This document shows, in pieces, positions 930-59,505 of a stretch of DNA of 64,000 bases (the first letter of the stretch is position 1; the number at the start of each line of letters is the position of its first letter). The notes below the pieces were generated by a model. The model had not been told where the DNA came from. It worked only from the letters and a program-made list of their open reading frames with translations, and ran no database searches. The DNA comes from a virus: the IMG/VR virus record IMGVR_UViG_3300027796_000318; one strand, given 5' to 3'. The position numbers were made by a program, and so were the translations under genes.

Positions 930-2642
930 TCAGAAAATCAGCAGGCCGTCGGGGCGGGCGGTGGCGTCGTTGTAGATGGAGGGGCCACCCTTCGGCGCCG
1001 GATTGCGTTCCATCAACTTCGCCGCGTCGAACATCGCCATCAGCGGGTCGATCTTCGAGTAGCCCGACGCCTGCTTGGTCACAAGAAAGGCGTTCTTCGT
1101 CGGCTCGATCCGGGCATTGCTGACGCACCAAGCCATCAGGCGCTGGCCGCAATGGCGGAATGTGCCATCGATCAGCTTGCGCTCAACGCCCTTGATCGCC
1201 CCGGTCAGGACATAGCCCTGCGAGATGCCGGCGACCTGCTGGCCGTCCTGCGTGACCTGGATTTCCGCCAGGGCATCGACAATGCCGGCCAAACCGATCG
1301 TGTCGAGCCCGACGCAATCGAGCAGCCCGGTGTCCAGCACCCGGCGGACAATCTCCATCGCGCCGTCCAGATCCTCGGGATATTCCCGGATGATCGTCAG
1401 GTCGCCGTCCTGCTCGAAATCACGGTATTCGGCGACGTTGGCCTTGCGACGCTCCAACGCCTTCGGGTGCGCCCAGGCGTGGCCCCAATGCAGCCAGCGG
1501 CGGGTTCCCTGCTCGCGGCCGATCACCGCGAGGCCGAGCAGATCGTCAGCGCCACCGCCGTCGATCCCGATCGATACCACCTCGGACCGCTCAAGGATCG
1601 CATCGAGGCTCAGGCCGGCCTCGGCCGCCGCTTCCCAGTCGTTGGCGCCGGTCCAGCGGTCGGAGCGCAGCGCCAAGCCGATCTCGACATTGAGATGCTT
1701 GGCCAGGAAGCCCCGGACGCTATCCTCGCCGTTCTCCTCGGCCTTGGAGAACTCGTCCTTCAAGAACTCCCGATCGACCGACGCCCCGAGGTTGGGGTTC
1801 GTGATGTGGAAATTTTGCGGGTCTCGGTGCCCGCCCGCGTCAAGCATCGCTTGCGGGAACTCATACAGGACCGGCAGGAACCGCTTGTTCTTGATCCTGC
1901 CATCTCGGATGCCGCGCGCATATTGCAGCTTCTGGCGCATCACGCCGGCCGGCGGGTCGTTGCTTTGGGTCGTGAGGTAGATCACGAACCCTTCGGGGCG
2001 CGAGGCAAGTCCGCCGGTCGCCTCACGCAGCATATCCTCCGCGTGCGGCTGCTTTCCAAGCAGCCACAGCTCATCAACCAAGACGCCGACTGCTTTCTTG
2101 CCGCCGACCGTCTGGCTGTCAGCGGCCACCACCTTCAGCGTCGCGCCAGTACCGCGATGCGTGATCGTCCGGAGGTGGTCCTGCACCTGGCACAGGTCGG
2201 AAAGTTCCTCGTTCTTTCGCACCATGTCACGGGCCGGAAAGAACGAGTTGTTCGCCACCTCGATCGTCGGCGCCAGGATCAGAAATTCACCAGACTCGCG
2301 CCAATTGCGGATCAGCGCCGTCAGCATGATTCCGGCGGCAATCGTCGATTTCGAGTTCTTCTTGCTGATGAGCAGCAGGAATTCACGGATCAACCGCCGA
2401 CCCGGCTCTCCGGCCGCGCCGTTGTGATCGTAGGCACCGAACACTGCGCCGACGAAATCAAACACCCAGGGGCGGCACGCCTCGCCCATCGTTGGACTAC
2501 AGGGAGCATCGACGATGCGAAGCTCGCGGAACTGCGCCAGGGCCGAGGCCGCTTCGTCCGGGAACAGCGGCGGGCAGGGGATCAAAGATTCGCCCGCGAC
2601 GATCCGGCGCTCCCAATCCGGGCAGGCAGTCTCCCAATCCAT
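930..2642 (-). CDS. terL: Terminase large subunit
   Basis: Walker A-like ISKKNSKST, Walker B VLVDELW, C-terminal nuclease motif KIDPLMAMFDA. Confidence 0.95.
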   Translation of the reverse strand: MDWETACPDWERRIVAGESLIPCPPLFPDEAASALAQFRELRIVDAPCSPTMGEACRPWVFDFVGAVFGAYDHNGAAGEPGRRLIREFLLLISKKNSKSTIAAGIMLTALIRNWRESGEFLILAPTIEVANNSFFPARDMVRKNEELSDLCQVQDHLRTITHRGTGATLKVVAADSQTVGGKKAVGVLVDELWLLGKQPHAEDMLREATGGLASRPEGFVIYLTTQSNDPPAGVMRQKLQYARGIRDGRIKNKRFLPVLYEFPQAMLDAGGHRDPQNFHITNPNLGASVDREFLKDEFSKAEENGEDSVRGFLAKHLNVEIGLALRSDRWTGANDWEAAAEAGLSLDAILERSEVVSIGIDGGGADDLLGLAVIGREQGTRRWLHWGHAWAHPKALERRKANVAEYRDFEQDGDLTIIREYPEDLDGAMEIVRRVLDTGLLDCVGLDTIGLAGIVDALAEIQVTQDGQQVAGISQGYVLTGAIKGVERKLIDGTFRHCGQRLMAWCVSNARIEPTKNAFLVTKQASGYSKIDPLMAMFDAAKLMERNPAPKGGPSIYNDATARPDGLLIF

Positions 2643-2645
2643 GGG

Positions 2646-2987
2646 CTACCTCTTCGTGTTGTCGATCGCCAGCTTCGGCGGGGCGGGGGCGGCGAACTTA
2701 CCCCGGGCCGCTTCCTTCGCCGCTTCGGCCCTCTGCTCTTTCTTGCCGGGCACGGCATCGGCAATGCGGGAGTCGGTGAAGGGCAAAACGGCCTGCATGG
2801 CCCTCAAGCGGCTGTCGAGATCGACACCATCGTTGTTGATCACCCACATGGCGAATTCCTTCGCCGTCTTGAAGACGGGCGATCCGGCCGGGGCGGCGTC
2901 AAGAACCGCCGCCATGGCTTTGATTTCCTTTGTTGCCTTGGTGCCTTTCGGACGGCCAGCGCCCGGGCGAAAACCTCCGCGCGCCAT
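2646..2987 (-). CDS. terS: Terminase small subunit
   Basis: MARGGFRPGAGRPK start motif; directly upstream of terL. Confidence 0.85.
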   Translation of the reverse strand: MARGGFRPGAGRPKGTKATKEIKAMAAVLDAAPAGSPVFKTAKEFAMWVINNDGVDLDSRLRAMQAVLPFTDSRIADAVPGKKEQRAEAAKEAARGKFAAPAPPKLAIDNTKR

Positions 2988-2999
2988 GGGGTTAGCCTC

Positions 3000-3112
3000 C
3001 AATTTGATTATTTGATTTCGGGGTGGGAAAAATCATACCGACGGAAAAATTCTACGGATGAGCCCCAACCGGTCGAAGCGCCCACCCGGGCTACTATTGA
3101 TAAACCCCCTAC
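3000..3112 (-). other. Probable cos packaging region of prophage A
   Basis: HNH-terS intergenic region, G-rich then GACCG...AATTTTT pattern typical of HK97-like cos; position-based inference. Confidence 0.5.
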
Positions 3113-3435
3113 CCCCTGAGCCTTTCGGCCCGGGCCTTGGCTGTCTTGACGTTGTGGCAGGCCTGGCAGACGAGACGGACATTGCGTGGGTCAAGGTCAG
3201 CCCCACCGTCTTTACGCTCAATGACATGGTCGCCAATCAGCTTGACGGGGGTGCCGTCAAGCTCATGCGTCTTGCCGCAGGTCTCGCACCGTCGGCCCCG
3301 CTGACGGATCAAATCGGCCCGCAGCTTTCGCCACGCATCAGACTGGTAGAACGCTTCGGCTTGTTTGGGCAATGGATGAGCGGAAGCCATCCGAATTGGC
3401 GCAGTAGTCGGGCCGAGAGTGCGGAGCTTGGCCAT
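3109..3435 (-). CDS. Packaging-associated HNH endonuclease
   Basis: CETCG...GDHVIERKDGGADLDPRNVRLVCQACHNVKT. Confidence 0.92.
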   Translation of the reverse strand: MAKLRTLGPTTAPIRMASAHPLPKQAEAFYQSDAWRKLRADLIRQRGRRCETCGKTHELDGTPVKLIGDHVIERKDGGADLDPRNVRLVCQACHNVKTAKARAERLRG

Positions 3436-3451
3436 ATCGCTATCTCAAATC

Positions 3452-3527
3452 TGGAGCCGCCTCGGGGTCACGATCCCCGCGCCTCCGGTTTACAAGGCCG
3501 GCGCTCTACCTGATGAGCTAAGGCGGC
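3452..3527 (-). tRNA. tRNA-Thr(UGU) with atypical T-loop
   Basis: 76-nt cloverleaf, GCCGCCT/AGGCGGC acceptor, loop CT-TGT-AA, encoded CCA; T-loop ATCGTGA; C31-A39 mismatch. Confidence 0.85.
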
Positions 3528-3632
3528 GTGGTCGGTGTCTTGGGTCTGGTGGCGGGATCGCCCCGCCGGGTTGTCGATAGGCGTGGTCTCGACGCCTCGT
3601 TTTACATCATGCCTTGCGGCACCCAGATCGCG

Positions 3633-3702
3633 TGGGCGGACGGACTTGAACCGCCGACCTCCTTCCGGCCCGGAAGGTGCTCTCCCAACTGAGCTACGCC
3701 CA
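3633..3702 (-). pseudogene. Degenerate tRNA-like element (Val/Ala-like; nominal anticodon GGC)
   Basis: Intact D and T arms, but a 5-6 bp acceptor, self-pairing anticodon loop CGGGCCG (no U33, no purine 37) and no CCA. Confidence 0.7.
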
Positions 3703-3761
3703 ATCACCCCGTCTGGTTCTCGACAACCTGATTACCGCACGCCTTGCGTGGCACCAGATCT

Positions 3762-3836
3762 TGGTGGAGCCTGGGGGCTCGAACCCCCGACCTTCGCGAT
3801 GCAAGCGCGATGCTCTCCCAACTGAGCTAAGGCCCC
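3762..3836 (-). tRNA. tRNA-Ala(UGC)
   Basis: GGGGCCT/AGGCTCC with G3:U70, anticodon TGC, ACCA end; 75 nt, T-arm one base short. Confidence 0.88.
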
Positions 3837-3837
3837 A

Positions 3838-3915
3838 TGGTCGGTGTGGACGGATTCGAACCGCCGGCCCTCGCGTCCCAAACGCGATGCTCTGGCCTGG
3901 CTGAGCTACACACCG
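3838..3915 (-). tRNA. tRNA-Pro(UGG)
   Basis: CGGTGTG/CACACCG acceptor, TT-TGG-GA loop, TTCGAAT T-loop, ACCA end. Confidence 0.93.
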
Positions 3916-3980
3916 TGAATTGCGCCCGCCCGCTGGCCCTGCTGGGGCCAGGAATTCCAAAAAATGTACGCTGTTTTTCA

Positions 3981-4009
3981 TTGATATAGCGTACAATGTA
4001 CGCTAAATT
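3981..4009 (+). promoter_or_regulatory. Sigma70-like promoter with palindromic operator in the spacer
   Basis: TTGATA-17-TAAATT; perfect inverted repeat TAGCGTACA-A-TGTACGCTA at 3987-4005; extra half site near 3965. Confidence 0.75.
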
Positions 4010-4062
4010 TATTTTGTCAGCGGGGATGATCCCAATGACAAAACGAAAGGAGGTGACGCGGA

Positions 4063-4131
4063 ATGAAGCTCCTGAAACTGGCAATCCTGGTTGCGCTGCT
4101 GATCTTGGCCGACACGCACGCAGCCTGGTAA
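4063..4131 (+). CDS. 22-aa hydrophobic peptide, type I toxin-like
   Basis: MKLLKLAILVALLILADTHAAW behind strong SD AGGAGGTGA; below the ORF track length cut-off. Confidence 0.75.
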   Translation: MKLLKLAILVALLILADTHAAW

Positions 4132-4195
4132 ACCAAAAGGTGGGGCCGGGAAACCGGCTCCACCGCAGGAGATAAGGACCCGCGTCACCTCCTGA
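4131..4195 (-). ncRNA. Putative cis-antisense sRNA (about 60-65 nt)
   Basis: Minus-strand TTGAAC-18-TACAAT promoter (4230-4201); ends in hairpin 4139-4164 followed by TTTT on the minus strand. Confidence 0.55.
4135..4164 (-). terminator. Intrinsic terminator-like hairpin
   Basis: GGTGGGGCCGG-GAAA-CCGGCTCCACC, 11-bp stem, AAAA on the left flank. Confidence 0.6.
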
Positions 4196-4210: not shown

Positions 4211-4426
4211 ATGAAACCCGAACAGTTCAAGGAATGGCGATCGGCGATGGGCCTGTCCCAGATCAAGGCAGGGGAAGCTCTCGGACTTAGCAAGACCACG
4301 ATTGAGCTATACGAGGCGGGCCGGCGGCGGGATGATGGCCGTGCGGTCGAAATACCGCACTCTGTCGCCCTGGCTTGCGCCGCGCTGTACCACCGCATCA
4401 AGGCGTGGGGTGACGGCACCCCCTGA
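4211..4426 (+). CDS. XRE-family HTH protein
   Basis: FKEWRSAMGLSQIKAGEALGLSKTTIELYEAG. Confidence 0.88.
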   Translation: MKPEQFKEWRSAMGLSQIKAGEALGLSKTTIELYEAGRRRDDGRAVEIPHSVALACAALYHRIKAWGDGTP

Positions 4427-11740: not shown

Positions 11741-12208
11741 ATGCGAAAAATTTCCACTCGTGGCCGTCTCGAAGATGGCGCCCCCAACCCGGTTGACGTG
11801 CATGTCGGCGCCAGGATGCGCCTCCGCCGGACGCTGCTCGGCATCAGCCAGGAGAAGCTGGGCGAGGCGATCGGTCTGACCTTCCAGCAGATCCAGAAAT
11901 ACGAGCGCGGCACCAACCGCATCAGCGCCTCGCGGCTGTTCGATCTGGCCCGCGTCCTCGATGTGCCGATCTCGTTCTTCTTCGACGACATGCCCGACGC
12001 GGCGGCGGCGTCGAGCCCGTCCGCAGTGATCACCGGCACCGCCATGGCGACCTCTGATCCGGTGGCGCGGGCGACGCGGACCTGGCCGGAGATGGCCCAG
12101 GTCGCCGCCGATCTGATGGCGATCGATATCCAGACCCGGAAGACCTTCGCCTCCATGATTCGGCTTACGGCCGAGGCGCAGGCCAGCGTCCGGCAGGCGG
12201 CGGAATAG
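11741..12208 (+). CDS. XRE regulator of the host-like alphaproteobacterial type
   Basis: PNPVDVHVGARMRLRRTLLGISQEKLGEAIGLTFQQIQKYERGTNRISASRL. Confidence 0.9.
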   Translation: MRKISTRGRLEDGAPNPVDVHVGARMRLRRTLLGISQEKLGEAIGLTFQQIQKYERGTNRISASRLFDLARVLDVPISFFFDDMPDAAAASSPSAVITGTAMATSDPVARATRTWPEMAQVAADLMAIDIQTRKTFASMIRLTAEAQASVRQAAE

Positions 12209-23155: not shown

Positions 23156-24388
23156 CTAACGCACCGCTTCCTGCCGCGCCCCAATCAGCCCAAACACCGA
23201 CCGCTCACCCGCCGACGCCGTGGTCCGGTCCAGTGCCCGCGCTTGGAACAGGTGGCCATAGACATCGAGGGTAAACGCCGCTGACTCATGCCCGACCCAT
23301 TGACTGATCTGCTTGACATCGGCGCCCTCGTCGATCCACAGGCTGACGGCGAAATGCCGCAACTTGTGCGGCGTATACCGGGGCTCCCCGTCCTCACCCA
23401 CCAGCCTGAGCCGGCGCTGGAGCGGGTCGAACTGATTGCGGATAATGTTAGTCAGCGACAAGACTGGCACGCGGCCCGGTTTGACCCGGCTCCCGCTGGA
23501 GGCAAAGACTAGACCCGCCGCATTGGCTGGACACACCCCACGCCAATCCCGCAGCATTCCGAGCAGGATATCACCGATCGGCACTCGCCGCAGCGCGGCC
23601 GCCGTTTTGACCGGGCCAAGGTTACCCCAAGCGTCTGCCGCCGTCCGCACCTCGATCCAGCCGGCCTCCAGATTGACCGCACCCCAGGTCAGGCCTCGGG
23701 CTTCCCCCGGCCGAAGTCCGGCCAGCGCAATGCAGGCCAGCCAGGGCTGGAGCCAGGGAGCCGCCCGCACCGGGCCGCCGCCAGTCGGCCAAGCCTTGCT
23801 GGCGTCAGCGCCCTCAATCAGCGCCCGCACGTCCTCCCGCTCGGGGCAGACCGCCCGGGTCGAGGATCGCGCCTCAATGTCCCGCCGCCGGATTCGTCGC
23901 CGCGCCCGGAGCGCCCGAACCGGATTGTGTGCCGCCCGGCCCGTCCTGATCGCCTCATCGATGATCGCGCCCAGCGTCTTTTTGGCCCGGCTCACCGTGT
24001 CATCGCTCCGCCCGGCCGCAGACAGATCATCGAGAAACGCCTGCACCGTTGCCGGGGTAATGGCCGACAGCCGACGGCCAGCCAGCAGCGGGGCGATCTG
24101 GTTGTTGTAGGCCAGCCTGTGCCCGGCCAGCGTCGAGGGGGCCGCGCCGTCCTGCTCGATCGCCGTCAAGAACAGTTCAGCCGCCCGCGCCACCGTCGGC
24201 GAGTCGCTGCTCGCCACATGCGTCCCGGCCCGGATCTGCTCCTGGACCTCAACATAACGCGCCTGCGCCGCCGCCCGGGTCGGAAACGATTCCTGGTGCC
24301 GTTTCCCGGCCGCGTCCCGGTAATCGCACACCCAGCCCGGCTTGCCGCTCTTGGGCGTGTATGAGGATTTTCGAATGCCCATCAGCAT
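23156..24388 (-). CDS. int: Tyrosine integrase
   Basis: Arm-binding N-terminus (WVCDYRDAAGKR), GLRPGE, HKLRH, VGH, TLDVYGH. Confidence 0.95.
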   Translation of the reverse strand: MLMGIRKSSYTPKSGKPGWVCDYRDAAGKRHQESFPTRAAAQARYVEVQEQIRAGTHVASSDSPTVARAAELFLTAIEQDGAAPSTLAGHRLAYNNQIAPLLAGRRLSAITPATVQAFLDDLSAAGRSDDTVSRAKKTLGAIIDEAIRTGRAAHNPVRALRARRRIRRRDIEARSSTRAVCPEREDVRALIEGADASKAWPTGGGPVRAAPWLQPWLACIALAGLRPGEARGLTWGAVNLEAGWIEVRTAADAWGNLGPVKTAAALRRVPIGDILLGMLRDWRGVCPANAAGLVFASSGSRVKPGRVPVLSLTNIIRNQFDPLQRRLRLVGEDGEPRYTPHKLRHFAVSLWIDEGADVKQISQWVGHESAAFTLDVYGHLFQARALDRTTASAGERSVFGLIGARQEAVR

Positions 24389-48850: not shown

Positions 48851-50170
48851 TCAGGCGCGGGTCGCGAGCGTGACGAAGTGGGAGCGGGTGGTTCCGCCCT
48901 TGGCGGGACTGACCGGGGCGGAGAGGTGCGGCTGTCCTCCCAGACGGAAAGCCCAACGAAACGCCTGAAGGCCGCGATCGAAATAGAGGTGGATCGAGGT
49001 ATCAAGCCGCACCCCGCCGGAACGCTGCGGGCTGTAATAGCCCTTGGGGCTTACCAACTGGAGATCGCCCTCGGCCCCCAGGGTCTGAGCGTATTCCATC
49101 CAGCGCACCGGATAGCCGAGGATGGTGCCCTCGGGAGCGGCCATCAGCCCCTGAGGGGGCAGCCAGACCGGCTGATTGCCGATGGTCAGCGGCAGCAGTT
49201 GGGGCAGGATATCCCGATTGGCGATCCAGATCGGTTGGTCGCCCGGCTGCACCAGCAGGCGGGTGTACATGGCCACCAGATTATTGATGGATAAGGTTTT
49301 TGCCGCCTGTCCAGTATCTTTGGCCACCGTGATCTTGGCCGGGGAACGGAACCATCCCAGGGGTTTGCCGACTCCGTCGCCGTAAATCAGGGTATCGCCA
49401 ATCGTCCAGCGGATGGCGAGCGCGGCCTTGTCAATCAGGCGGGTGGCAAGGCGGGGGGCGTCCTCGAGCAGTTCCTCGCTCGCCAGCACGAAGGCATACA
49501 GGCGATGCAACTGGATGATCCGGGGATCCGCCGGTGGTGCCTTACTCGCGGTGAGTTGGTGCTGTTCAGCCTCCCAGCGAACCTGAACCCCTCCGGTCGA
49601 CCAAGGCGTCGTTTCGTCCGCCAGCAACGAGACCGACCGCAGGGTGGTCGGTTCGTTATCGACCAGAGAGGAGATGTCGGGAACGTCGTAGACCAGGGAC
49701 CAGATCTGTTCGCGGTACATCGGCGGCAGAAGGTAGCCGTCATTGCTGCCGTCACCGATATGAGCGGTGGGGGCTGCGGCCATCATCGAGCGGAGTCGAT
49801 CGTCAAGGGCAGAGCCGGTGTCAGCGGCACGAACGGCCGAGGCAAAGTCGGCCATGCTGGCAAATCCGCCAGTTTGCGCCGGATCGGGTTCGGCCGAAAA
49901 GATGCGCGCGCCGGGGCGGATCGCGGCAGAGATCTGGGCGACCCGGCGATCGCGCTCCAGCCGCTCCCGGGCCTGATCCCGTTCGGTCACCACCGATTCG
50001 GCAGCGGCCAGTTCGGTCTCCAGCCGGGCTCTGAGATCATTGAGTGCGGAGGCCTCGGCCTCGGTCAGGTCGGTCTTGGCTTCGAGAGTGGAAAGGGCAG
50101 CCAGGGTTTTATCGACGGCCGCCTTGGCGTCGGCGACCCTCTGATTCAGGGCCTTGAGGGACGGAGGCAT
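48851..50170 (-). CDS. Major capsid protein (HK97 fold)
   Basis: Coiled-coil delta domain, DGYLLPP, WEAE, FRWAFRLGGQP. Confidence 0.93.
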   Translation of the reverse strand: MPPSLKALNQRVADAKAAVDKTLAALSTLEAKTDLTEAEASALNDLRARLETELAAAESVVTERDQARERLERDRRVAQISAAIRPGARIFSAEPDPAQTGGFASMADFASAVRAADTGSALDDRLRSMMAAAPTAHIGDGSNDGYLLPPMYREQIWSLVYDVPDISSLVDNEPTTLRSVSLLADETTPWSTGGVQVRWEAEQHQLTASKAPPADPRIIQLHRLYAFVLASEELLEDAPRLATRLIDKAALAIRWTIGDTLIYGDGVGKPLGWFRSPAKITVAKDTGQAAKTLSINNLVAMYTRLLVQPGDQPIWIANRDILPQLLPLTIGNQPVWLPPQGLMAAPEGTILGYPVRWMEYAQTLGAEGDLQLVSPKGYYSPQRSGGVRLDTSIHLYFDRGLQAFRWAFRLGGQPHLSAPVSPAKGGTTRSHFVTLATRA

Positions 50171-50194
50171 GGATTTCTCCCAGAAGTAAGGGGA

Positions 50195-51184
50195 TCAGGA
50201 CAAAGCGGCGCGACGCAGGCGGGCGAGGCGCAAATCGTGATCAATGGCCCGGCCCGGGGGTAGGGCTGACTGTGGCGGCGGGGCGGGTTTGCGCCCCTGC
50301 AAGCGGGCGATGGTTTCGGCCAGAGTCGCGACCCGGTCGGCCATGCCGAGCGTTTTGGCCTTGGCGGCAGGGACGGACCGTCCCTCGCCATAGCCGTCGC
50401 GAACGGCCGCGATCGGAACGCCGCGTCCCTGGGCGATATCGCCAACAAAAAGGTCATAGGTCGCGTTGACCTGTTCCTGGATCGCGGCGCGGGCCTCGTC
50501 GCCGAGTGGCTCGAAGGGGTTGCCTTCGGCCTTGTATCGGCCCGCCTTGATCACCGAGGCGGTAATCCCCTGCTGATCGAGGGCGCGGGAAAGATCGCGG
50601 TGGATGGTGTACACACCGACCGAACCGACCTGACCCGAGGGGGTCACCACCAGTTCGTCGGCTTGGGCCGCCAGCCAATAGGCCGCCGAGGCGGCCATGC
50701 CGTCGGCAACCGCCACGATCGGTTTCGTCCCCCGCAGGGAACGCAATTCGGCCGCTGCCTCATGAACCCCGGTCGCCGCACCACCAGGGCTGTCGATCGC
50801 CAGAACCAGAGCGCCCACCGTTTCGTCGGCATGGGCCTTGCGGATCTTGTCGAGATACCCTTCCAGCGACACCATGCCCGAGCTGTCGTTGAACAGGCTG
50901 GCCCGGCGGGTGATCACGCCTTGAAGCGGCAGGACAGCGACGGATCCGGCCCGGGCCGCCCCGGCGCGAACCGGAGTCCGCGCCGCCGAACCGATCCGGG
51001 CGGCGATTTCGTCCTGGCTCCAGCGGGCTCCAGACAGACGATAGGCCAGCACCTCGGCGACCACCGCCATCATCTCGGGAGTGATCGCCCACGACGTCTC
51101 GGCCACCAACTGCAAGACGTGCGCGTACTCGACCGCCGCCAGGGCCGGGGCGGCATCTTCGGTCGTCTCCACCGATGTCTCCAA
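50195..51184 (-). CDS. S49-family prohead protease
   Basis: IDSPGG, AASAAYWLAAQAD, VGSVGV. Confidence 0.93.
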   Translation of the reverse strand: METSVETTEDAAPALAAVEYAHVLQLVAETSWAITPEMMAVVAEVLAYRLSGARWSQDEIAARIGSAARTPVRAGAARAGSVAVLPLQGVITRRASLFNDSSGMVSLEGYLDKIRKAHADETVGALVLAIDSPGGAATGVHEAAAELRSLRGTKPIVAVADGMAASAAYWLAAQADELVVTPSGQVGSVGVYTIHRDLSRALDQQGITASVIKAGRYKAEGNPFEPLGDEARAAIQEQVNATYDLFVGDIAQGRGVPIAAVRDGYGEGRSVPAAKAKTLGMADRVATLAETIARLQGRKPAPPPQSALPPGRAIDHDLRLARLRRAALS

Positions 51185-52390
51185 TCAGGCCGGACGGTCG
51201 GCCGGTTTGGCCTCATCCGGACGGGTGCCCGCCGGGGCCATGTTGAGCGGTTGCAGATGATCGTCGCCATTGGCGATCGGATTGAGGTTCAGCATCCGGC
51301 GAACGTCGTTGATGCTGAGCCAGCCCCCCTCCCGTCCCATTTTGAACGCCTCGGCCTGACTCTTGAGGTCGCCACGCAGCAGGCCGGCAACATTGAATTC
51401 AACGTAATGGTCCTCGTCAGGGATCAGATCGAGATTGATCTTCTGTTCCCACATTTCGAGGACGGGCAGGGCGGTATCGGAAAGAAATTCCAGAGCCTGA
51501 TGCTCGATATTGGAAAACGTCGCCCGGTCGAGCATGCCGATTTTATGCGGGGGAATGCGCCAGATCCGCGCGACTTCCAAGGCGTTTTCCTTCCTGGTTT
51601 CCAGGAATTGCGCCTTCTCGTTATCAAGCTGAATCCTGACATATTTGATGCCGAACTCCAGCAGGGCATCACGATGCTGATGCTTTCCAGTCCGAGCCTG
51701 CCGCCAGGATTCCATGAAAGCATCGCGGGCCGGGCGATCCTTGAAAAAGGACGGATGTTCGAGAATCCCGCCGGCCTCGCCATTGTTGCGGAAAAACCGC
51801 TGTCCGTAGCGGTGGACCGCCAGCGCGGCGCCGAGGGTGTCGGCATGAGTGACCAGCACCGGACGTCCCATGAGGCCGTCATCAGTGAAGGGACCACACC
51901 GCAGATGAAACACCTCTTCAGCGGCGAGCAGGCGCGTTCCGTGCTTTTTTGACCAGGTGTGATACCACAGACTACCGCCGATCCATTCCGGCCAGGTCAC
52001 GGCGGGGTCAAGGCGCTCCAGTTCGCTTACCGCGCCCCGTTCGCCTGGGATGATCTCGGCATAAGCGTTGCGATGCCAGTCGACATCGCGCTGCATCTGC
52101 TGGCGCCAGTCCCAACTGGACTGCCAAGCGTTGGGCCGGCGGGCAAGGACATAGGCCAGAGGATGGTCCGACGCCGGTTCCCGTCCCCCGTCATCGCGCC
52201 GGCGGAACACCTGGAGCGGCAGTGAACTGAGCAGCCCCGCCCGGATATCGAGGCAGGCGGAAACGACAGGCAACGATAAAGCGGCCGCCTCGGTAACGGG
52301 CTCCCCGGCCTCGGTGCCCACGACATGAAGGATGGCCCCGCTTGAACCACCACGCGAGAACAGGGATTCAAGCCAGCCGAACATGCTCAT
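51185..52390 (-). CDS. HK97-family portal protein
   Basis: VSACLDIRAG...RRPNAWQS...VARIWRIPPHKIG...NEVRR-like end. Confidence 0.95.
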   Translation of the reverse strand: MSMFGWLESLFSRGGSSGAILHVVGTEAGEPVTEAAALSLPVVSACLDIRAGLLSSLPLQVFRRRDDGGREPASDHPLAYVLARRPNAWQSSWDWRQQMQRDVDWHRNAYAEIIPGERGAVSELERLDPAVTWPEWIGGSLWYHTWSKKHGTRLLAAEEVFHLRCGPFTDDGLMGRPVLVTHADTLGAALAVHRYGQRFFRNNGEAGGILEHPSFFKDRPARDAFMESWRQARTGKHQHRDALLEFGIKYVRIQLDNEKAQFLETRKENALEVARIWRIPPHKIGMLDRATFSNIEHQALEFLSDTALPVLEMWEQKINLDLIPDEDHYVEFNVAGLLRGDLKSQAEAFKMGREGGWLSINDVRRMLNLNPIANGDDHLQPLNMAPAGTRPDEAKPADRPA

Positions 52391-54111
52391 GACACCGCCA
52401 CCGTGTAGCCGGGGGGAAGGGCAATTCCCCGTTCCACCTCTTGCAGGGCCATCGCCCGACCGATTCCCATCAGCTGCGCCGCGATACCGTCGATCTTGTC
52501 GCCCGAGCGGTCCTTGTCCGGCTTAAGACAGCCGGCAGGATCCTGACGAACCGCAACATTGCCGGCCATCCAAGTCAGCACCGGGTGGCCCCCATGTTCC
52601 AACTCCCGCGCAATCACCTGACGCTCCAAATCGGCAGTGGGCGCGGCCATGCTCACGAACCCCTGGCCGAACCCGACCATCGCAATCCCCTCATCGGCCA
52701 GGGTCTGGATCACCTCACCGGCAAAGGTGCGGTCATAAGCGACTTCGACCAGATCGAACCGGGCGGCGTCTTCGACAATCTGGTGGGCGATGAAGCTGAA
52801 ATCGGTGGTGTCGCCGGGAGTTACCAGGATTGCCCCCTCGTCCCGCCACAGATCGAGGCGGACCCGGCTCTCTTTCATCCGTTTGACGAAGTTGTATTCC
52901 GGCAGCCAGAACCGGCAGAGGACGTGCCAATGCGGATCTTCATCGTCTGGCGGGAACACCAAGACAAAAGCCGAGAAGTCCCGCACCCGCGCCAGATCGA
53001 GGCCGCCATAGCAGCGTCGCCGGGCAAGCTGCGCCTCTTTCTCCCGCCACGGAATCGGGCCGGTGCACTCGTCCCAGGCCGCCATGTCGAGCCACTTCGA
53101 ACTCTGTTCGGTCCACTGGTTGAGATGCAGACGGCGATAAGTGTTGGTGTAGCCAGGGGTTTCCTGGGCGCGCTTGAGCTGGTCAAGCAGGTAGGGCACC
53201 CGTACCGCCTCGCCCAGCAGCGGGTTGGCCTTGGCAAGGGCACGCGGGTCCGTCCAATCTTCCTCCTCGTCGGCCGCGAAAATGATCGGCAGGAACGAGG
53301 GGTCCACCAGATCTCCGGCGGCGACCCGGCGCGCAATTTCGTGCATCTCCCAGCAGATGGTGCGGCGGTCGTAACCGGCGGTGGTGGCGTAAGCCTCAAG
53401 CGGCTGTTGGCGGGCGCCGGTCGCCGTGTGTAGCGCGTCGATCAGATCGCGGGTCTTCTGCTCGTGAACCTCATCAACAATGATCCCGGAAGGGTTCAGG
53501 CCATGCTTGCCTTCGGGCAGCCCAGAGAGGACGCGATAGGCTCCCATCAGCCGGGGGCAGACGATTGCCCCTTTCAGAACCTCAAGAATTTTCCCCAGTT
53601 CCGGCGATTGATGGACCATCGCCGCCGCCTCGCGAAAGATGATGCTGGCCTGCTCCTTGTCGGTGGCCGCTGACAGTACCTCGGGCGACCCTTCCCCATC
53701 CGCCACCAGCATCAGCAGGGCGATTCCGGCCAGCAGAGTGGATTTGCCGTTCTTGCGGGCGACTTCCAGCCACAGGGTCCGAACCACCCGGGTGCCTGCC
53801 TCCTCGCCATAACCCGCTTTCCAGCGATAGCCAAAGATGATCCGGACAATCCGCTGTTGGATCGGCGCCAGGACAAAAGGCCGTCCCTGGTGCCGCCCCT
53901 TGCTGTGCCGGAGAAAGCGCGGAAAGAACTGGACCGCCTTCTCGGCCCGGGTCGCGTCGTACTCGAACCGAGGGTCGGCGCGGTATCGCTGTTTCTGAGC
54001 CTCCACCACCGCTTCGGCATGAGCCCGGGCCAAGGCCACCAGTTCAGCCTCAACCGCCAGCGGATCATCCGGTAACGGCGTCAGTTCAGTTGAGGTAACC
54101 AATTGGGTCAT
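52387..54111 (-). CDS. terL: Terminase large subunit
   Basis: VARKNGKST, IVDEVH, KIDGIAA. Confidence 0.95.
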   Translation of the reverse strand: MTQLVTSTELTPLPDDPLAVEAELVALARAHAEAVVEAQKQRYRADPRFEYDATRAEKAVQFFPRFLRHSKGRHQGRPFVLAPIQQRIVRIIFGYRWKAGYGEEAGTRVVRTLWLEVARKNGKSTLLAGIALLMLVADGEGSPEVLSAATDKEQASIIFREAAAMVHQSPELGKILEVLKGAIVCPRLMGAYRVLSGLPEGKHGLNPSGIIVDEVHEQKTRDLIDALHTATGARQQPLEAYATTAGYDRRTICWEMHEIARRVAAGDLVDPSFLPIIFAADEEEDWTDPRALAKANPLLGEAVRVPYLLDQLKRAQETPGYTNTYRRLHLNQWTEQSSKWLDMAAWDECTGPIPWREKEAQLARRRCYGGLDLARVRDFSAFVLVFPPDDEDPHWHVLCRFWLPEYNFVKRMKESRVRLDLWRDEGAILVTPGDTTDFSFIAHQIVEDAARFDLVEVAYDRTFAGEVIQTLADEGIAMVGFGQGFVSMAAPTADLERQVIARELEHGGHPVLTWMAGNVAVRQDPAGCLKPDKDRSGDKIDGIAAQLMGIGRAMALQEVERGIALPPGYTVAVS

Positions 54112-54628
54112 CGCTGTCCTGCGCCTGCTGGGGCTGGGGACTATGGGCCGTCGGTGCTGGCGCCGTCGGTCCGAACGGCAGTTCCCCCTGGCGTCCGGCC
54201 ATCTGCGATGCGGCCCGCAGGCGGTCGCCGGTGGTCAGGGCCAAGGACTTGCCGAACGCAAGGATGATCCGCTCGGCCGCCTGGACGATCTCGACTTCCG
54301 GCCGTTTGCGGACGTAACCGGACTGGGTCTCGTAGGTCAGACCTTCCTTTTGCAGCACCCGGTTGGCCAGCGCATGCCGCGCCAGGGCCTGAACGTAAAC
54401 CGCGAACGCGCCAAGGTCCGAAGGTCGGGCATAGCCGGCGCGCTGCAATCTGCCGATCTCACGATCCCAGACTTTCTTTTCGGCGAACGTCAGGTGAGTC
54501 GGCGGCGCGAAATCATCGACCGCCGACGATTGCTCCGCGAACGCGGTTCGCGGTTGGCGCGTCCGCTTGCCCGGATTGCCCGCCAGCTCGTGGAGGGCCT
54601 CCGGCTTCGGCTTGCGTCCCTTGGCCAC
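54086..54628 (-). CDS. terS: P27-family terminase small subunit
   Basis: GRKPKP...LAGNPGKR...PPTHL...LTTGDR. Confidence 0.88.
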   Translation of the reverse strand: MAKGRKPKPEALHELAGNPGKRTRQPRTAFAEQSSAVDDFAPPTHLTFAEKKVWDREIGRLQRAGYARPSDLGAFAVYVQALARHALANRVLQKEGLTYETQSGYVRKRPEVEIVQAAERIILAFGKSLALTTGDRLRAASQMAGRQGELPFGPTAPAPTAHSPQPQQAQDSDDPIGYLN

Positions 54629-54639
54629 CGGTACCCCCT

Positions 54640-54730
54640 GAGAAAAAATAATATTTGCCCAATTTCGCGGCGATACGCGCGCGACCCCCATACGGTCCGG
54701 CGCCCCCGGGGTGGGAGACTTTCAGCCCCC
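54640..54730 (-). other. Probable cos region of prophage B
   Basis: HNH-terS gap with GACCG...CGCGAAATT pattern; position-based. Confidence 0.5.
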
Positions 54731-55156
54731 CCTGGGGGGTGGACGACGGGCCGGGCGGCCGAGACCGCCATCGGTGAGAGCCGTCTTCGAACTGTGGTGC
54801 GAATGGCAAAGGGATCGCAGGTTGCTCGGATCGAGACGGCGCGACGGATCGACGCGAACAGAGACGATGTGATCGACGTCGGTGGCTCGGTTGGTGCAGC
54901 CGGGCATCTCACACCAAGGATGGTCGGCGAGATGAGCAGCGCGGAGGCACTCCCACTTGCTGTCGTAGCCTCGCTTGCGGGCCGAGCCGCGCGCTTGGTC
55001 GTAGGCTTTGACACAACGCGGGCAACGCTGACCCACCACCACCAGTGTCCCGCAACACGGGCAGGCGCGGGGCGGAAGGGTTGGCACTGTCGGGGCTCCA
55101 AAAGCAAAGCGCCCGGATCGGGGCTCGATCCAGGCGCATGTATAGCTCGTCACCAA
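54722..55156 (-). CDS. HNH endonuclease
   Basis: SARKRGYDSKW...DVDHI...NLRSLCHSHHSSKT. Confidence 0.92.
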   Translation of the reverse strand: MVTSYTCAWIEPRSGRFAFGAPTVPTLPPRACPCCGTLVVVGQRCPRCVKAYDQARGSARKRGYDSKWECLRAAHLADHPWCEMPGCTNRATDVDHIVSVRVDPSRRLDPSNLRSLCHSHHSSKTALTDGGLGRPARRPPPRGG

Positions 55157-55157
55157 A

Positions 55158-55751
55158 TCAATAACTTTTCGCTGACCTCGCCGTCAAGCCCTCTTTCCAG
55201 GGGGTAGCCGAGGCTTCCGGGCCGATGACCAGTTTGCCATCGATCCTGATTGAGCCCAGGCGCCGGGACAGATCAACCAGCGCCTGACGCCAAAGTCGGT
55301 AGGCGTCACGTTCGGCCTCGACCACATCCAGATCCCAGCCCAGCATCAGGGTACCGTCACCGAGTTCGACCCCCTGCCGGACGCGATGACCGATCACATG
55401 ACGATGGTCATCATAGATTTGGCGGGGGTTACCGCGCAGGTTGACCTCCGCCGCGATGACCAGTTTGGCACCGGGCAGCCAGTCGGGCCGGTCGGCCGCC
55501 TTGGCGTGGCAGATCACCAGCACCGCCTGATAGCGCGAGAGGCCCAGCACAAAGCCGTGAAGCAGATCGGCGTCAGGGTGGCAATCGGCGCCGACCGAAA
55601 CGGCGGTGGACAACGACCGGGCGACCAAAGCGCAGGAATCGAACTGGGGCTGAGGACCGACGCCCATCTGCTGCCGGAGATCCGCCTGTTGGAGCCGATA
55701 CGTCCAGATCAGAGCCTGTTCGATGTCGATGGTTGGGGTTGCGATGGTCAT
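55158..55751 (-). CDS. Putative late regulator / hypothetical protein
   Basis: IDIEQALIWTY...CHPDA; position before HNH. Confidence 0.5.
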   Translation of the reverse strand: MTIATPTIDIEQALIWTYRLQQADLRQQMGVGPQPQFDSCALVARSLSTAVSVGADCHPDADLLHGFVLGLSRYQAVLVICHAKAADRPDWLPGAKLVIAAEVNLRGNPRQIYDDHRHVIGHRVRQGVELGDGTLMLGWDLDVVEAERDAYRLWRQALVDLSRRLGSIRIDGKLVIGPEASATPWKEGLTARSAKSY

Positions 55752-56005
55752 CTTGCCTCCTGTCTGCCCTTGTCCGGGTAAAAAACCGACCATGGACACT
55801 GAAAACCCGCTCTTTGCCTGCCTTTGTCCGGGGTGTCCGGGTTGTCTAGGCCAATCTCTCGCGCGCTCATACGCACGCTACGCGCACGCGCGCGCGAAAA
55901 AAAACACGGACAGCCCGGACACCCCGGACAAAGCCCGCTTTTCTGCGCCTCTCCGCTGTCCGGGCTGCGGCCAACAGCCCGGACAAGGGTAGACAAGGCG
56001 CAGCC

Positions 56006-57559
56006 TCAATCCATCAGATCGAAGCAGCCGCCATCATCCCCGCTGGCCAGTTTTTCTCCGCCTGCGGGAGAGGGTGTCGAGTCGCTGCCATCCTCGGTTT
56101 CATCGCCCCACGCGAAGGTCCAGTGGGCTATTGTGGCGAAATGATCCCGGCACTCTCCAAGAGAGGGGAAATTCTTCCAGCCATTGACCCGCTTCCACGC
56201 TTTACTGCCGGCGACATCGACCAGCCACGCGCCGTTTTCGAAGTCTGGCACCCGAACCTTCTGGCCATCGGTGAAGCGTCGCGGCAGCATCCCGCGCAAC
56301 TGGACTGCCCAGGCTTCCAACGGCAGCTTGCGTTCGCGGCTGGTGCGGTCGCAGTAGCGGACGTAATCGTCATACAGAACCTTGGTCGGCACATCGCTTG
56401 GCCAATCGTCGCCATAGGGCAGCAGCCGCCCCTCGCGCAGCTTGCCCAGCCACCAGTGATTGATCAGCGGCATGGTGGCGACCTTCTGTTCCCACAGCGC
56501 CTCGGTCATCGGGATCTTGCGGAGATTGACCTGGGAGAGGTCGATCCGCTGGAGATAGGCCAGCAGGTGGCCCAACCCGCCAGCCTCCATTTCGGTGTCC
56601 ATCCGGGCGAAATAGTCGTGGTCCTGGATTCGCCCGTCACCGACATCAAGCACGCAGAAACGGCGCTCCTCGAAGGCGGCCGGGACGACCCAGGTGCTGT
56701 TGGAGGAGACATAGAGCCGGACCAGATTGCGGACCTGGACCCCGTCGATTCCTTTCTTTTCGAGCATGTGGACATCGCCGGTAACGAGATCCTTCAGCAC
56801 GCCCTCAGCCTCCTTATCGCCTGCCCAAAAGCCCTCATCAGCCTGCAACAACAGGCAATTGAACATGTGGCTGTTGAACTGGCCGGTCAGATGCTTGGAC
56901 TTGGCGATCTTGACATAATGGTCCCCCAGCAGCCGCCCGACGATTTCCCCCGGCTTGCTCTTGCCGGTGCCCTGGTGCCCGCGCAGCACCAGCGAGGTTC
57001 CCACCTTGCGCTCCGGGTGCTGGATCAGATCGGCGAACCATCCCCACACCCAGGCGGCGATATCACGGTTGCCCCGGGCGACATTGGTCAGGATGTGATC
57101 AACGAAGGTCGGGATGTGTTTCAGATGGTCGGCAGGGTCCGGGTAAGGCGGGGCCGCTTCGACCGAGAACCCACGCCACAGATTGAAAAACCGGTTGCCG
57201 CACACTTCGTCCGGGATTCCCTCCGGGGCGAACTCGACCCCGGAAAATTTGCGGCGTAAGGGGCTCTTCAGCCAGATATCGCCGATCCCGACCATCCTCC
57301 GAGTTTCTTCGTCGAAGACCCTTTCTTCGGACAGCCAGTCGCGGAAATCGCCGGTCCCCATAAACTCGACCACTCGCCGGCGCTGGAAATTATAGGTCTC
57401 GCGCAGGATGCGGGCCTTGCCGCCCAGCAGGACCAGGGCGAACTCCTCGGAGATTTCCTGCAACCGTCGCTCAACCGGGTCATTGGACCGCTGGACTCCG
57501 CCGGGCTTGCCCCGTGCCCGTTCTTTCTTGGCTTTGGCCAAATCAATCGGTGCGCTCAT
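56006..57559 (-). CDS. SF3/D5-like helicase (DUF5906-type)
   Basis: GHQGTGKS, LQADE, VSSN, ERRF. Confidence 0.88.
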   Translation of the reverse strand: MSAPIDLAKAKKERARGKPGGVQRSNDPVERRLQEISEEFALVLLGGKARILRETYNFQRRRVVEFMGTGDFRDWLSEERVFDEETRRMVGIGDIWLKSPLRRKFSGVEFAPEGIPDEVCGNRFFNLWRGFSVEAAPPYPDPADHLKHIPTFVDHILTNVARGNRDIAAWVWGWFADLIQHPERKVGTSLVLRGHQGTGKSKPGEIVGRLLGDHYVKIAKSKHLTGQFNSHMFNCLLLQADEGFWAGDKEAEGVLKDLVTGDVHMLEKKGIDGVQVRNLVRLYVSSNSTWVVPAAFEERRFCVLDVGDGRIQDHDYFARMDTEMEAGGLGHLLAYLQRIDLSQVNLRKIPMTEALWEQKVATMPLINHWWLGKLREGRLLPYGDDWPSDVPTKVLYDDYVRYCDRTSRERKLPLEAWAVQLRGMLPRRFTDGQKVRVPDFENGAWLVDVAGSKAWKRVNGWKNFPSLGECRDHFATIAHWTFAWGDETEDGSDSTPSPAGGEKLASGDDGGCFDLMD

Positions 57560-59505
57560 GCTGCCCCCTGAACGGCTTCGGCCGTCACTTGGATGCGGGG
57601 CCGCCGCAAGCGGGGGGGGCGAACGTGCTTATCCAGCCTCTCCCCCAGCTCGATTGATGCGGCCACCAAGGTGGAGAGAGGGCCAAGCGCCGCCCAGGCG
57701 CGGCCCCAATCGATCATAAACACGCTGTCGCGGTCTGCGGCGCGGTCGCGCAGCCAGTCGCGCGGACCATCGGCCACTGCCACCGGGCAAGTCAGGCCAT
57801 CGGCCTCGTGGGCCAGAGCCTCCGCTACCACATCCTCGCCCAGGATCGCGGCATGACCGGTTCGGCTGGCGATTTCGTCAGTGCGCGGATTCCAGGCGAC
57901 CAGATCCAGCAGCGCCGAGCCCGGTCCTTCCGCCCAAACCGGGATCAGCAGCACCGAGACCCCGGCTTCGGCCGGGTGCCACAGCGTCGGGCGCGGGGCG
58001 TCGGGCCAATCCTGTCCCGCTGCGGCCCGGCCTAACGCCAGAATCGCCCGGCTGAGGCCCAACCCGCCCAGGTGCTGCCACAGCGCCTCGGGATTGATGC
58101 CGTTATCGGCCAGCCAGGGCCGGACTTTGCCGGCTTCGGCTTCGGCGCGGGCGGTGGTCCATTCCTCTGCGATGGACCCGTGACCGGGCCGGGGGGCGAA
58201 TTTGCGCCGGCTGCGACCGACCAGCAGAGCCGGCGGGGCCGGGCGATAAGCGCGCCGCAGCCGCTCGCGCCAGTGATCCAGCACCGCCCGGCGCAGGCCG
58301 GGATGGGCGATGGTCGCGGCCAGACTCGCCAAGGTCCGCTCGAACGCGGCGAGGCGTTCCGGGGTATCGGGCGGAGCCCCACGCAAAGCGAGGCCCCACA
58401 GCCATTCGACGGCCGACCGCGATCCCGCCAGAGCCCGGCGCAGCGCCTCCGGCCCGTGCTGGCGCAGCAGGGAATCAGGATCGTGCCGGCGGGGCAGGCC
58501 GGTGGCAAAGCGCAGGCTCCGGTCTGGCGCCAGCAGCGGCAGAGCGCGGCGGGCGGTCCGTTCCATTGCCGCCTGCCCGGCCGCGTCGCCATCGAGGCAG
58601 ACCAGGATTTCCGGCGCTACCCGCCACGCCGCCTCCAGATGCCGCTCGGTCAAAGCGGTGCCGAGGGGGGCGACCGCCAGCGGCAGGCCGGCCCGATGCA
58701 GGGCAATCACATCCAGGTAGCCCTCAACCACGATCACCCGGCCGGCATCGGTGGCGGCGGCGCGGGCTTGGGCCAGCCCGTAGAGGGTCGCGCCCTTGTC
58801 CCACAAAGGCGTTTCCGGCGAGTTGAGGTATTTCGGCCCCTCGCCAGCGATCAGCCGACCGCCGAACGCCACCACCTGGCCGCGCCCGTCAGTGATCGGG
58901 AACAGCACCCGGCCCCGAAACAGGTCGCGCGCCGGGCCGTCCTGACTTGGCCGCACCAGTCCGGCCTCGATCAGCAGGGATTCGGGATAAACCGCGCTCC
59001 CCAGCCCGCGTTGCAGAGCCTGCCCAGCAGCTGGTGCCCAGCCCAGGCGCCACCGGGCGATGGTCTCATCATCCAGCCCGCGCCCGCGCAGATAGGCCAG
59101 CCCTTCGGCGCCGGCCGGACTCTGCAATTGGGCCTCATACCAGCGGCAGGCCGCTTCGAGCGCCTGATGCAGCGAGGCCCGGCGCTGATCCTGCGCCCGC
59201 TCTTCGGGGGTGGCGCGCGGGATCTCCAACCCGGCCTCGGCCGCCAGCGTTTCGACCGCCTCGATAAAGGAGAGCGATCCGGCGCGCATCTCGAACGCGA
59301 TCACGTCGCCATGGGCGCCGCAGCCGAAGCAATGGAAGAAGCCCTTGTCCTCATTGACGGTGAAGGACGGGCTCTTTTCGTTGTGGAACGGGCACAGCCC
59401 ACTGTGTTTCCGGCCCTTGCGGGTCAGCTTGACCCGCCGGCCGACCACCGACGCCAGGGGAACCCGGGCGCGCAGCTCGTCGAGAAAGGAGGCGGGGAAG
59501 CTCAT
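57556..59505 (-). CDS. DnaG-like primase (CHC2 zinc finger, Toprim)
   Basis: CPFHNEKSPSF...HCFGCG, KYLNSPET, VEGYLDV, LDGDAAG. Confidence 0.95.
   Translation of the reverse strand: MSFPASFLDELRARVPLASVVGRRVKLTRKGRKHSGLCPFHNEKSPSFTVNEDKGFFHCFGCGAHGDVIAFEMRAGSLSFIEAVETLAAEAGLEIPRATPEERAQDQRRASLHQALEAACRWYEAQLQSPAGAEGLAYLRGRGLDDETIARWRLGWAPAAGQALQRGLGSAVYPESLLIEAGLVRPSQDGPARDLFRGRVLFPITDGRGQVVAFGGRLIAGEGPKYLNSPETPLWDKGATLYGLAQARAAATDAGRVIVVEGYLDVIALHRAGLPLAVAPLGTALTERHLEAAWRVAPEILVCLDGDAAGQAAMERTARRALPLLAPDRSLRFATGLPRRHDPDSLLRQHGPEALRRALAGSRSAVEWLWGLALRGAPPDTPERLAAFERTLASLAATIAHPGLRRAVLDHWRERLRRAYRPAPPALLVGRSRRKFAPRPGHGSIAEEWTTARAEAEAGKVRPWLADNGINPEALWQHLGGLGLSRAILALGRAAAGQDWPDAPRPTLWHPAEAGVSVLLIPVWAEGPGSALLDLVAWNPRTDEIASRTGHAAILGEDVVAEALAHEADGLTCPVAVADGPRDWLRDRAADRDSVFMIDWGRAWAALGPLSTLVAASIELGERLDKHVRPPRLRRPRIQVTAEAVQGAA

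What the first reader, a model, noticed from the sequence alone, without database searches (positions are those of the whole stretch)
3528..3761. Repeated structured RNA motif in the tRNA spacers
Both long spacers share sequence blocks (transcribed strand GATCTGG..TGCC..GCAAGGC ... GTCGAGA ... ACCAGA) and are closed by a TCTGG/CCAGA stem. The 3545-3627 copy folds as a 4-way junction (GTGCC-GCAA-GGCAT, AGGCGT-7-ACGCCT, GGCGGG-5-CCCGCC). The 3712-3758 copy is a shorter version. No tRNA or ORF explains them. They may be a small ncRNA released by tRNA processing or a processing/antitermination signal.
Basis: seen in the sequence. Interest (0 to 1): 0.65.

Follow-up and report, generated by a model that had tools for sequence, protein, structure and literature searches.

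The report
Phage tRNA-framed RNA with nested tRNA
The two "spacers" in this prophage's tRNA cluster are the two halves of one 218-base folded RNA that wraps around a non-decoding tRNA look-alike; it belongs to a widespread phage RNA family that I found in no catalogue searched, and its job is not yet shown.

Summary
The shared blocks and hairpins are real, but they are not two copies of one motif. The spacers pair with each other: 3541-3758 (minus strand) is one RNA with a tRNA-like acceptor stem, D-like and T-like hairpins and CCA. A 9-bp helix (P2) replaces the anticodon arm and opens into a conserved junction. The odd "tRNA-Ala(GGC)" at 3630-3703 sits inside one arm. I collected 58 distinct relatives from phages of Proteobacteria, Firmicutes and metagenomes; 49 keep the linker and at least 7 of 8 P2 pairs, with compensatory changes (12.8% when halves of different members are crossed). 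Nine are circular permutations without the outer tRNA frame. In both forms a tRNA-like unit often docks at the same distance from the core. No Rfam family matches; T4 species 1/2, Y RNA, tmRNA and GOLLD are analogues only. Best reading: a stable trans-acting late RNA whose tRNA parts are maturation handles and whose conserved core binds a host factor (inferred, about 0.45); a new ribozyme is not excluded. This scan noted the family before in a CUS-3-like prophage (e1-084306), and similar tRNA shells many times. Expression was not testable.

The parts
3541..3758 (-). Whole tRNA-framed RNA (218 nt), starting 3 nt after the CCA of tRNA-Ala(TGC) and ending in C-CCA
   Evidence: MFE fold with 7-bp terminal stem and 4 unpaired 3' bases, z -2.12; family alignment A1. 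The ends are inferred, not mapped.
3752..3758 (-). P1 (acceptor-like stem), 5' strand
   Evidence: Pairs with 3545-3551 (probability 0.44-0.58 for six pairs, 0.02 for the seventh); relatives form an equivalent terminal stem with different sequences
3737..3751 (-). D-like hairpin with GG in the loop
   Evidence: Centroid fold; GG in this region in 37 of 40 framed members; Firmicutes-phage members have a Leu-type D arm
3729..3735 (-). Conserved single-stranded linker (T-AATCA) between D-like hairpin and P2
   Evidence: AAT invariant in all 22 rows of the MAFFT alignment; fixed spacing to GAGA; kept in permuted members
3720..3728 (-). P2 5' strand (helix in the anticodon-arm position)
   Evidence: 9-bp perfect match to 3569-3577 (I17); covariation CG/GC/AU and UA/AU/GC
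3708..3719 (-). Junction strand GAA, P3 5' strand (3712-3716) and conserved distal GG (3708-3709)
   Evidence: P3 probability 0.97-0.98; G at 47/49 and 42/49 at these two positions
3630..3703 (-). Inner tRNA-like unit nested in the P3 loop; resembles tRNA-Ala in D and T arms but cannot decode normally (no U33, C37, no G3:U70, 1-72 mismatch, ends C-G-C instead of NCCA)
   Evidence: ARAGORN Ala(GGC); Rfam tRNA 43.6 bits with the anticodon loop unaligned; alignment to tRNA-Ala; equivalent units at the same distance in relatives
3623..3629 (-). P3 3' strand
   Evidence: compensatory change in L222 (CCAG/CTGG to TCGG/CCGA)
3609..3622 (-). P4 hairpin with GCAA tetraloop (present in one subtype of the family)
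   Evidence: Probability 0.9-1.0; equivalent hairpins in L222, L261, L268, CUS-3, D6
3579..3608 (-). Conserved core: A-rich junction strand (TAAAACG, within 3598-3608) and P5 hairpin (3579-3597) with constant stem and variable loop
   Evidence: Invariant in alignments A1 and A2 (partly because the search patterns required it); model R1 scores it 72.5 bits, single copy in the window
3569..3577 (-). P2 3' strand
3552..3566 (-). T-like hairpin, degenerate 5-nt loop in this copy
   Evidence: MFE; canonical T loop in 16 of 40 framed members
3541..3551 (-). P1 3' strand (3545-3551), discriminator-position C and CCA (3541-3544)
   Evidence: Sequence and fold
3763..3915 (-). Upstream tRNA-Pro(TGG) 3838-3915 and tRNA-Ala(TGC) 3763-3837
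3452..3527 (-). Downstream tRNA-Thr(TGT)
930..3435 (-). Downstream HNH (3109-3435), terminase small (2646-3002) and large (930-2642) subunit genes: start of the late/packaging operon
   Evidence: PHROGs hits

Best explanation
The locus encodes one structured non-coding RNA, co-transcribed with the tRNAs at the head of the late operon. SHOWN by comparison: the nested fold, the family, a conserved core (linker, P2, GA junction strand, P3 with distal GG, A-rich strand, P5), an interchangeable tRNA-like frame, and a tRNA-like unit docked at a fixed distance on P3. INFERRED: host RNase P and 3' trimming enzymes treat the outer frame, or in permuted members the upstream tRNA-like unit, as a pre-tRNA and release a stable RNA. 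The tRNA parts are therefore maturation and stability handles, not decoders. INFERRED, least certain: the compact core is the working part and acts in trans late in infection by binding a host protein or RNP, most plausibly as a decoy or inhibitor of host tRNA/RNA surveillance or defence. The identity of the RNA is about 0.95 likely; this mechanism about 0.45.
For: Cross-spacer pairing at 0.86-0.98. Inner P2 pairs covary, 0/500 shuffles. 49 of 58 core hits have linker plus at least 7/8 P2 pairs versus 12.8% for crossed halves, including about 20 members from a later, independent scan. The core survives circular permutation and loss of the frame in 9 members, so frame and core are separable. 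The frame runs from canonical Leu-type arms to degenerate loops while the core stays fixed. L222 keeps only T arm, short acceptor and ACCA inside P3, the part RNase P needs (own knowledge). [quoted passage not shown] Members lie in tRNA arrays or late leaders with no dedicated partner protein, and are patchy: none in about 75 related prophage loci or 802 sampled genomes.
Against: No target is known. CCA and discriminator are not conserved across the family. The inner unit ends N-G-C and pairs into P3, which may block rather than invite 3' processing. P5 shows no covariation, and its constancy is partly set by my patterns. Members are related, so cell counts overstate independent events. 'Decoy or inhibitor' rests on context only.
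Confidence: 0.45

Rival explanations
1. The core is a new self-cleaving or tRNA-trimming ribozyme that cuts at or near the 3' end of the adjacent tRNA-like unit, analogous in role to theta ribozymes.
For: Natural circular permutations and a small set of fixed single-stranded bases are typical of small ribozymes (own knowledge). In 14 members a tRNA-like unit ends 25-31 nt before the A-rich strand, T arm at -47 to -52 in 8. Twelve end N-G-C directly on P3, usually opposite the conserved GG (read). Theta ribozymes sit with their cleavage site at phage tRNA 3' ends (PMC10879173).
Against: No Rfam ribozyme match above chance level; supported helices are all nested, unlike HDV-like folds; most framed members have no tRNA in P3 to act on; the adjacent units are non-decoding, so trimming them has no obvious use.
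Confidence: 0.18
2. A cis-acting element of the nascent late transcript (put-like antiterminator or stabiliser) that helps RNA polymerase through the late operon.
For: Sits between Q and holin in CUS-3, before terS in an Aeromonas phage, before holin in a Hafnia phage and before HNH-terminase here; no partner protein.
Against: Also lies deep inside tRNA arrays of large lytic phages; a frame built for excision is not needed in cis; CUS-3 already has Q; most related prophages lack it.
Confidence: 0.14
3. An aminoacylated or ribosome-binding tRNA mimic (tmRNA-like), where the outer frame is the business end.
For: Firmicutes-phage members keep Leu-type D arm, canonical T loop and often A73; architecture resembles the tRNA-like domain plus large loop of tmRNA.
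Against: The frame is degenerate in this copy and absent in 9 permuted members while the core is kept; no tmRNA call; no tag reading frame seen.
Confidence: 0.13
4. A selfish or intron-like RNA insertion in tRNA genes that is spliced out to restore a tRNA.
For: Patchy spread; looks like an insertion in the anticodon arm of a tRNA-Leu in Firmicutes members.
Against: Removing the insert leaves a 7-nt linker and an 8-9 bp helix, not an anticodon arm; no group I or II intron match; no associated RT or endonuclease; frameless forms exist.
Confidence: 0.06
5. Two independent copies of a short trailer motif, or duplication debris.
For: The halves of this copy are significantly alike, and tRNA-Ala plus spacer aligns at 73% to inner unit plus spacer.
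Against: Local closures have probability 0.00-0.01; cross-spacer pairs covary in dozens of phages; the likeness of halves is missing in 9 of 10 relatives.
Confidence: 0.03

Closest known systems
Phage T4 species 1 and 2 RNAs (rnaC, rnaD)
   Same: Small RNAs encoded in a phage tRNA cluster with roles unknown (PMC3014915); rnaC has a canonical T arm near its 3' end and a large non-anticodon interior.
   Different: Neither has the linker, GAGA strand or A-rich/P5 core; model R1 does not hit the T4 region; no nested tRNA. Analogues, not members.
YrlA bacterial/phage Y RNA (Rfam RF02553; PMC4201824)
   Same: tRNA-like D, T and acceptor domain joined to a separate helix; can be an RNase P substrate.
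   Different: YrlA has a closed acceptor loop, a GNCGAA(N)G motif near the 5' end and a Ro60 gene within 4 kb; here the acceptor is open, the middle base of GTCGA covaries freely, and no TROVE gene was found in five carriers.
tmRNA, including two-piece alphaproteobacterial tmRNA
   Same: tRNA-like domain whose anticodon arm is replaced by a long helix leading to a large domain; natural permuted forms exist (own knowledge).
   Different: No tag frame, no pseudoknots seen, has a D stem, no G3:U70; not called by ARAGORN or Rfam.
GOLLD RNA
   Same: Phage RNA in tRNA arrays; some copies carry an embedded tRNA (PMC12990946).
   Different: GOLLD is 700-830 nt with P1-P27; this RNA is about 170-290 nt, has a tRNA frame, and no GOLLD match appeared at E up to 10.
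Theta (HDV-like) ribozymes (PMC10879173)
   Same: Structured RNA abutting the 3' end of a phage tRNA at a fixed position.
   Different: Different helix order; no HDV-like match; neighbours here are non-decoding units; activity untested.

Membership tests
Canonical tRNA (inner unit 3630-3703) | Cloverleaf with D and T arms | tested here: met
Canonical tRNA (inner unit 3630-3703) | 7-nt anticodon loop with U33 and purine 37 | tested here: not met
   Loop reads CGGGCCG and is left unaligned by the tRNA model
tRNA-Ala (inner unit) | G3:U70 and A73 | tested here: not met
   G3:C70, no A73, no CCA
T4 species 1/2 RNAs | Sequence or core homology to rnaC/rnaD | tested here: not met
T4 species 1/2 RNAs | Stable discrete RNA released from the tRNA operon | not testable with these tools
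YrlA Y RNA | Match to RF02553 and T-acceptor loop-D order | tested here: not met
   Only an 18-bit hit across tRNA-Pro/Ala, outside the element; here the order is acceptor-D-insert-T-acceptor
YrlA Y RNA | Ro60 (TROVE) gene nearby | tested here: not met
   0 of 5 carrier records, two of them about two-thirds complete; neighbours in the window are HNH and terminase
tmRNA | tRNA-like domain with G3:U70, tag frame and pseudoknots | tested here: not met
GOLLD | Conserved 3' domain P14-P27, length 700-830 nt | tested here: not met
   218 nt bounded by tRNAs; no match in window or homologue loci
GOLLD | Located in tRNA arrays, may embed a tRNA | tested here: met
Theta / HDV-like ribozyme | Starts within 5 nt of a tRNA 3' end | tested here: met
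   P3 strand follows the tRNA-like acceptor after N-G-C
Theta / HDV-like ribozyme | HDV fold with crossing P1/P2 and catalytic C in J4/2 | tested here: inconclusive
   Supported helices are nested and Rfam gave no HDV-like hit, but no dedicated descriptor was run
Self-cleaving ribozyme (any class) | Protein-free cleavage | not testable with these tools
   Needs an in vitro assay
Group I intron in tRNA | Catalytic core match and splicing that restores an anticodon arm | tested here: not met
   No Rfam intron hit; flanks cannot rebuild a 5-bp arm with 7-nt loop

The most novel reading that the evidence does not exclude
The conserved core is a previously unknown ribozyme class, found in two circular permutations, that acts on the tRNA-like unit docked on P3, or releases the RNA from the phage late transcript.
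Probability: 0.18. Interest if true: 0.9.

Novelty: new variant of a known kind. Interest (0 to 1): 0.62.

Why it matters
Phage tRNA clusters are usually annotated gene by gene, so this RNA is missed, and here part of it is miscalled as a tRNA-Ala(GGC); in phage D6 the adjacent unit is listed as "tRNA-OTHER". The family spans phages of Alpha- and Gammaproteobacteria and Firmicutes, and 117 of 5426 complete E. coli genomes carry the CUS-3 copy unannotated. Its core keeps the same geometry with or without a tRNA frame, which points to a specific molecular job. The role of T4-type stable RNAs in tRNA clusters is still open, and culturable carriers (CUS-3, IME10, Listeria B025, Pseudomonas D6/Psa21) make this family directly testable.

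Tried and rejected
I considered the spacers as permuted or broken tRNA-Leu and dropped it, because relatives vary freely there. A loose two-block pattern gave only noise. HNH- and terminase-related loci had no such cluster; the upstream 188-aa gene had no relative. RNAalifold on the whole alignment recovered only P5, because of the variable insert and a one-base bulge that splits P2 into two registers. The whole-element model was too large to calibrate. The duplex test chose anchors by energy and is biased; I rely. Loop-loop pairing between D-like and T-like loops, and a pseudoknot from the linker, were not consistent across members on inspection. Paper searches for the motif strings and the architecture found nothing relevant; thesis, supplement-only or subscription descriptions could be missed. 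Lambda LPR2 is a 63-nt Hfq RNA and was not shown to be related.

Full report
Setting. The stretch lies in a prophage-like region of about 63% G+C. On the minus strand the order is tRNA-Pro(TGG), tRNA-Ala(TGC), spacer 3704-3762, an odd tRNA at 3630-3703, spacer 3528-3629, tRNA-Thr(TGT), then HNH, terminase small and large subunits. That is the head of a late operon (inference from gene order). Rfam finds only the four tRNAs here, at gathering level and at E up to 10.

Checking the observation. The blocks are present and the spacers align better than 2000 shuffles. The three hairpins of 3545-3627 fold as described. The shorter "copy" does not fold beyond chance and does not form its closing stem. 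Folding both spacers with the gene between them gives a different picture: 3720-3728 pairs with 3569-3577, 3712-3716 with 3623-3627, and 3752-3758 with 3545-3551. The same pentamers serve in two helices of this copy, which is why each spacer looks self-closing.

Homologues. A pattern from the better aligned blocks found L222-L224. They keep both spacer motifs and change both sides of one P2 pair and of the P3 stem. Further scans and BLAST searches gave members in IMG/VR, metagenomes and named phages: CUS-3, IME10, Jgk1, Aeromonas 62AhydR11PP, Hafnia Meifeng, Acinetobacter SR, Listeria B025, Pseudomonas D6, Psa21 and M1, TPWB-08 and Vibrio 511E55-1. In a MAFFT alignment of 22 whole elements the inner P2 pairs read CG 10, GC 10, AU 2 and UA 15, AU 4, GC 1; no shuffle of 500 reached this, and slid registers fell to 29-47% paired. 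The outer four P2 pairs are complete in 21 of 22 once a single bulge is allowed. Over all 58 distinct core hits, 49 have the linker and at least 7 of 8 P2 pairs; crossing halves of different members gives 12.8%. About 20 of these came from the last scan, made after the model was fixed. Caveats: my patterns required the 3' motif, so its constancy is inflated, and members are related.

Anatomy. Forty members have a tRNA-like frame: acceptor stem, D-like hairpin, linker, P2, junction, T-like hairpin. Sixteen have a canonical T loop and 37 have GG in the D-like region; Firmicutes-phage members carry a Leu-type D arm. The window's frame is degenerate in its loops but has a 7-bp terminal stem followed by C-CCA. 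Nine members are circular permutations: the 3' module comes first, a short hairpin replaces the frame, and P3 becomes the terminal helix. What is kept in both forms is the linker, the P2 length, the GA junction strand, a GG about eight bases along P3 (47/49 and 42/49), the A-rich strand and the P5 stem. The GA strand opposite UAA fits a loop-E or UAA/GAN-type motif, and the linker could dock on the distal GG; both are inferences from known RNA motifs.

The inner unit. The gene called tRNA-Ala(GGC) resembles tRNA-Ala in D and T arms but lacks U33, purine 37, G3:U70, A73 and CCA. It lies in the loop of P3. A permissive ARAGORN run finds a tRNA-like unit ending 25-31 nt before the A-rich strand in 14 members, seven framed and seven permuted, with a T arm at -47 to -52 in eight (some calls may be spurious). 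By eye, twelve end in N-G-C directly on P3, and their anticodon arms are shrunk, expanded or missing. L222 keeps only T arm, short acceptor and ACCA. The nested unit is thus a recurring part of one subtype, not a stray gene.

Context. Members sit in late leaders or tRNA arrays. The only recurrent neighbours are late-operon genes, in at most five loci. No Ro60 gene was found in five carriers. The element is single-copy in the window and missing from about 75 related prophage loci; the exact core was not found in 802 sampled genomes. It is present in 117 of 5426 E. coli genomes, unannotated. It is accessory phage cargo.

How it most likely works. The separable frame and fixed core suggest a division of labour. 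The tRNA-like parts let host processing enzymes cut out and protect the RNA (inferred; precedent in YrlA, PMC4201824). The core is the working end and most likely binds a host protein or RNP in trans, as a decoy or inhibitor (about 0.45). A new ribozyme (0.18) is the main rival, given the permutations and the fixed docking of a tRNA 3' end, which recall theta ribozymes (PMC10879173). A cis antiterminator (0.14), an aminoacylated mimic (0.13), an intron-like element (0.06) and debris (0.03) follow.

Comparison and novelty. T4 rnaC and rnaD share the setting and an unknown role (PMC3014915) but not the core. YrlA, tmRNA and GOLLD each share one architectural idea and fail their membership tests; GOLLD can embed a tRNA (PMC12990946). 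No Rfam family covered any member tested and paper searches found no description. I reached the family before consulting earlier notes on it. An earlier agent reported the CUS-3-like copy as a tRNA-shaped RNA of a widespread family (e1-084306), and several reported tRNA-Leu shells with swappable inserts; these are unchecked notes, not support. Verdict: a real, well supported, uncatalogued phage RNA family; a new variant of non-decoding tRNA-like phage RNAs; function unproven; interest 0.62.

Noticed in passing
window 4048-4193 (+): 22-aa hydrophobic peptide gene (4063-4131) with a strong ribosome-binding site that is paired by a perfect 14-bp inverted repeat (4048-4061 / 4180-4193): looks like a type I toxin mRNA; an HTH gene (4211-4426) follows.
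   Followed up: partly
window 3963-4008: A 10-bp direct repeat (3963, 3995) with an inverted copy and an AT-rich promoter-like site between tRNA-Pro and the peptide gene; possible operator and divergent promoters.
   Followed up: no
window 3528-3538: The 10 nt just before tRNA-Thr are identical to the 3' end of tRNA-Pro (3838-3847), and Thr aligns to Ala at 71%: trace of a duplication within the array.
   Followed up: no
window 60492-60591 (-): sRNA-Xcc1 Rfam match above the gathering score.
   Followed up: no
window 48851-59505 (-): A major capsid gene and a DnaG-like primase far from the terminase at 930-2642, with an integrase at 23156-24388 in between: probably a second phage-like element in the window.
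   Followed up: no
L291, about 330-200 nt upstream of its core; The same D-like and T-like hairpins as in CUS-3 frame a different insert; well over 100 enterobacterial phage records match only the 5' frame, so the frame is reused with other cargo.
   Followed up: partly
L222:11616-11695 and 11900-12010; L261 flanks: A degenerate Leu-like tRNA shell upstream and further hairpin modules downstream, with a shared block also next to the element in L261 and L268: clusters of several structured RNAs.
   Followed up: no
L297:1134-1707 (Listeria phage B025): The element lies between rliG/rli62-like sequences and an mcrA RNA motif, a dense non-coding cluster before the last genes of the record.
   Followed up: no
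L287, L323, L337, L349, L362: Possible divergent members with altered P5 or without the linker; L287 may hold an intact tRNA-Ala(TGC) in the P3 position.
   Followed up: partly
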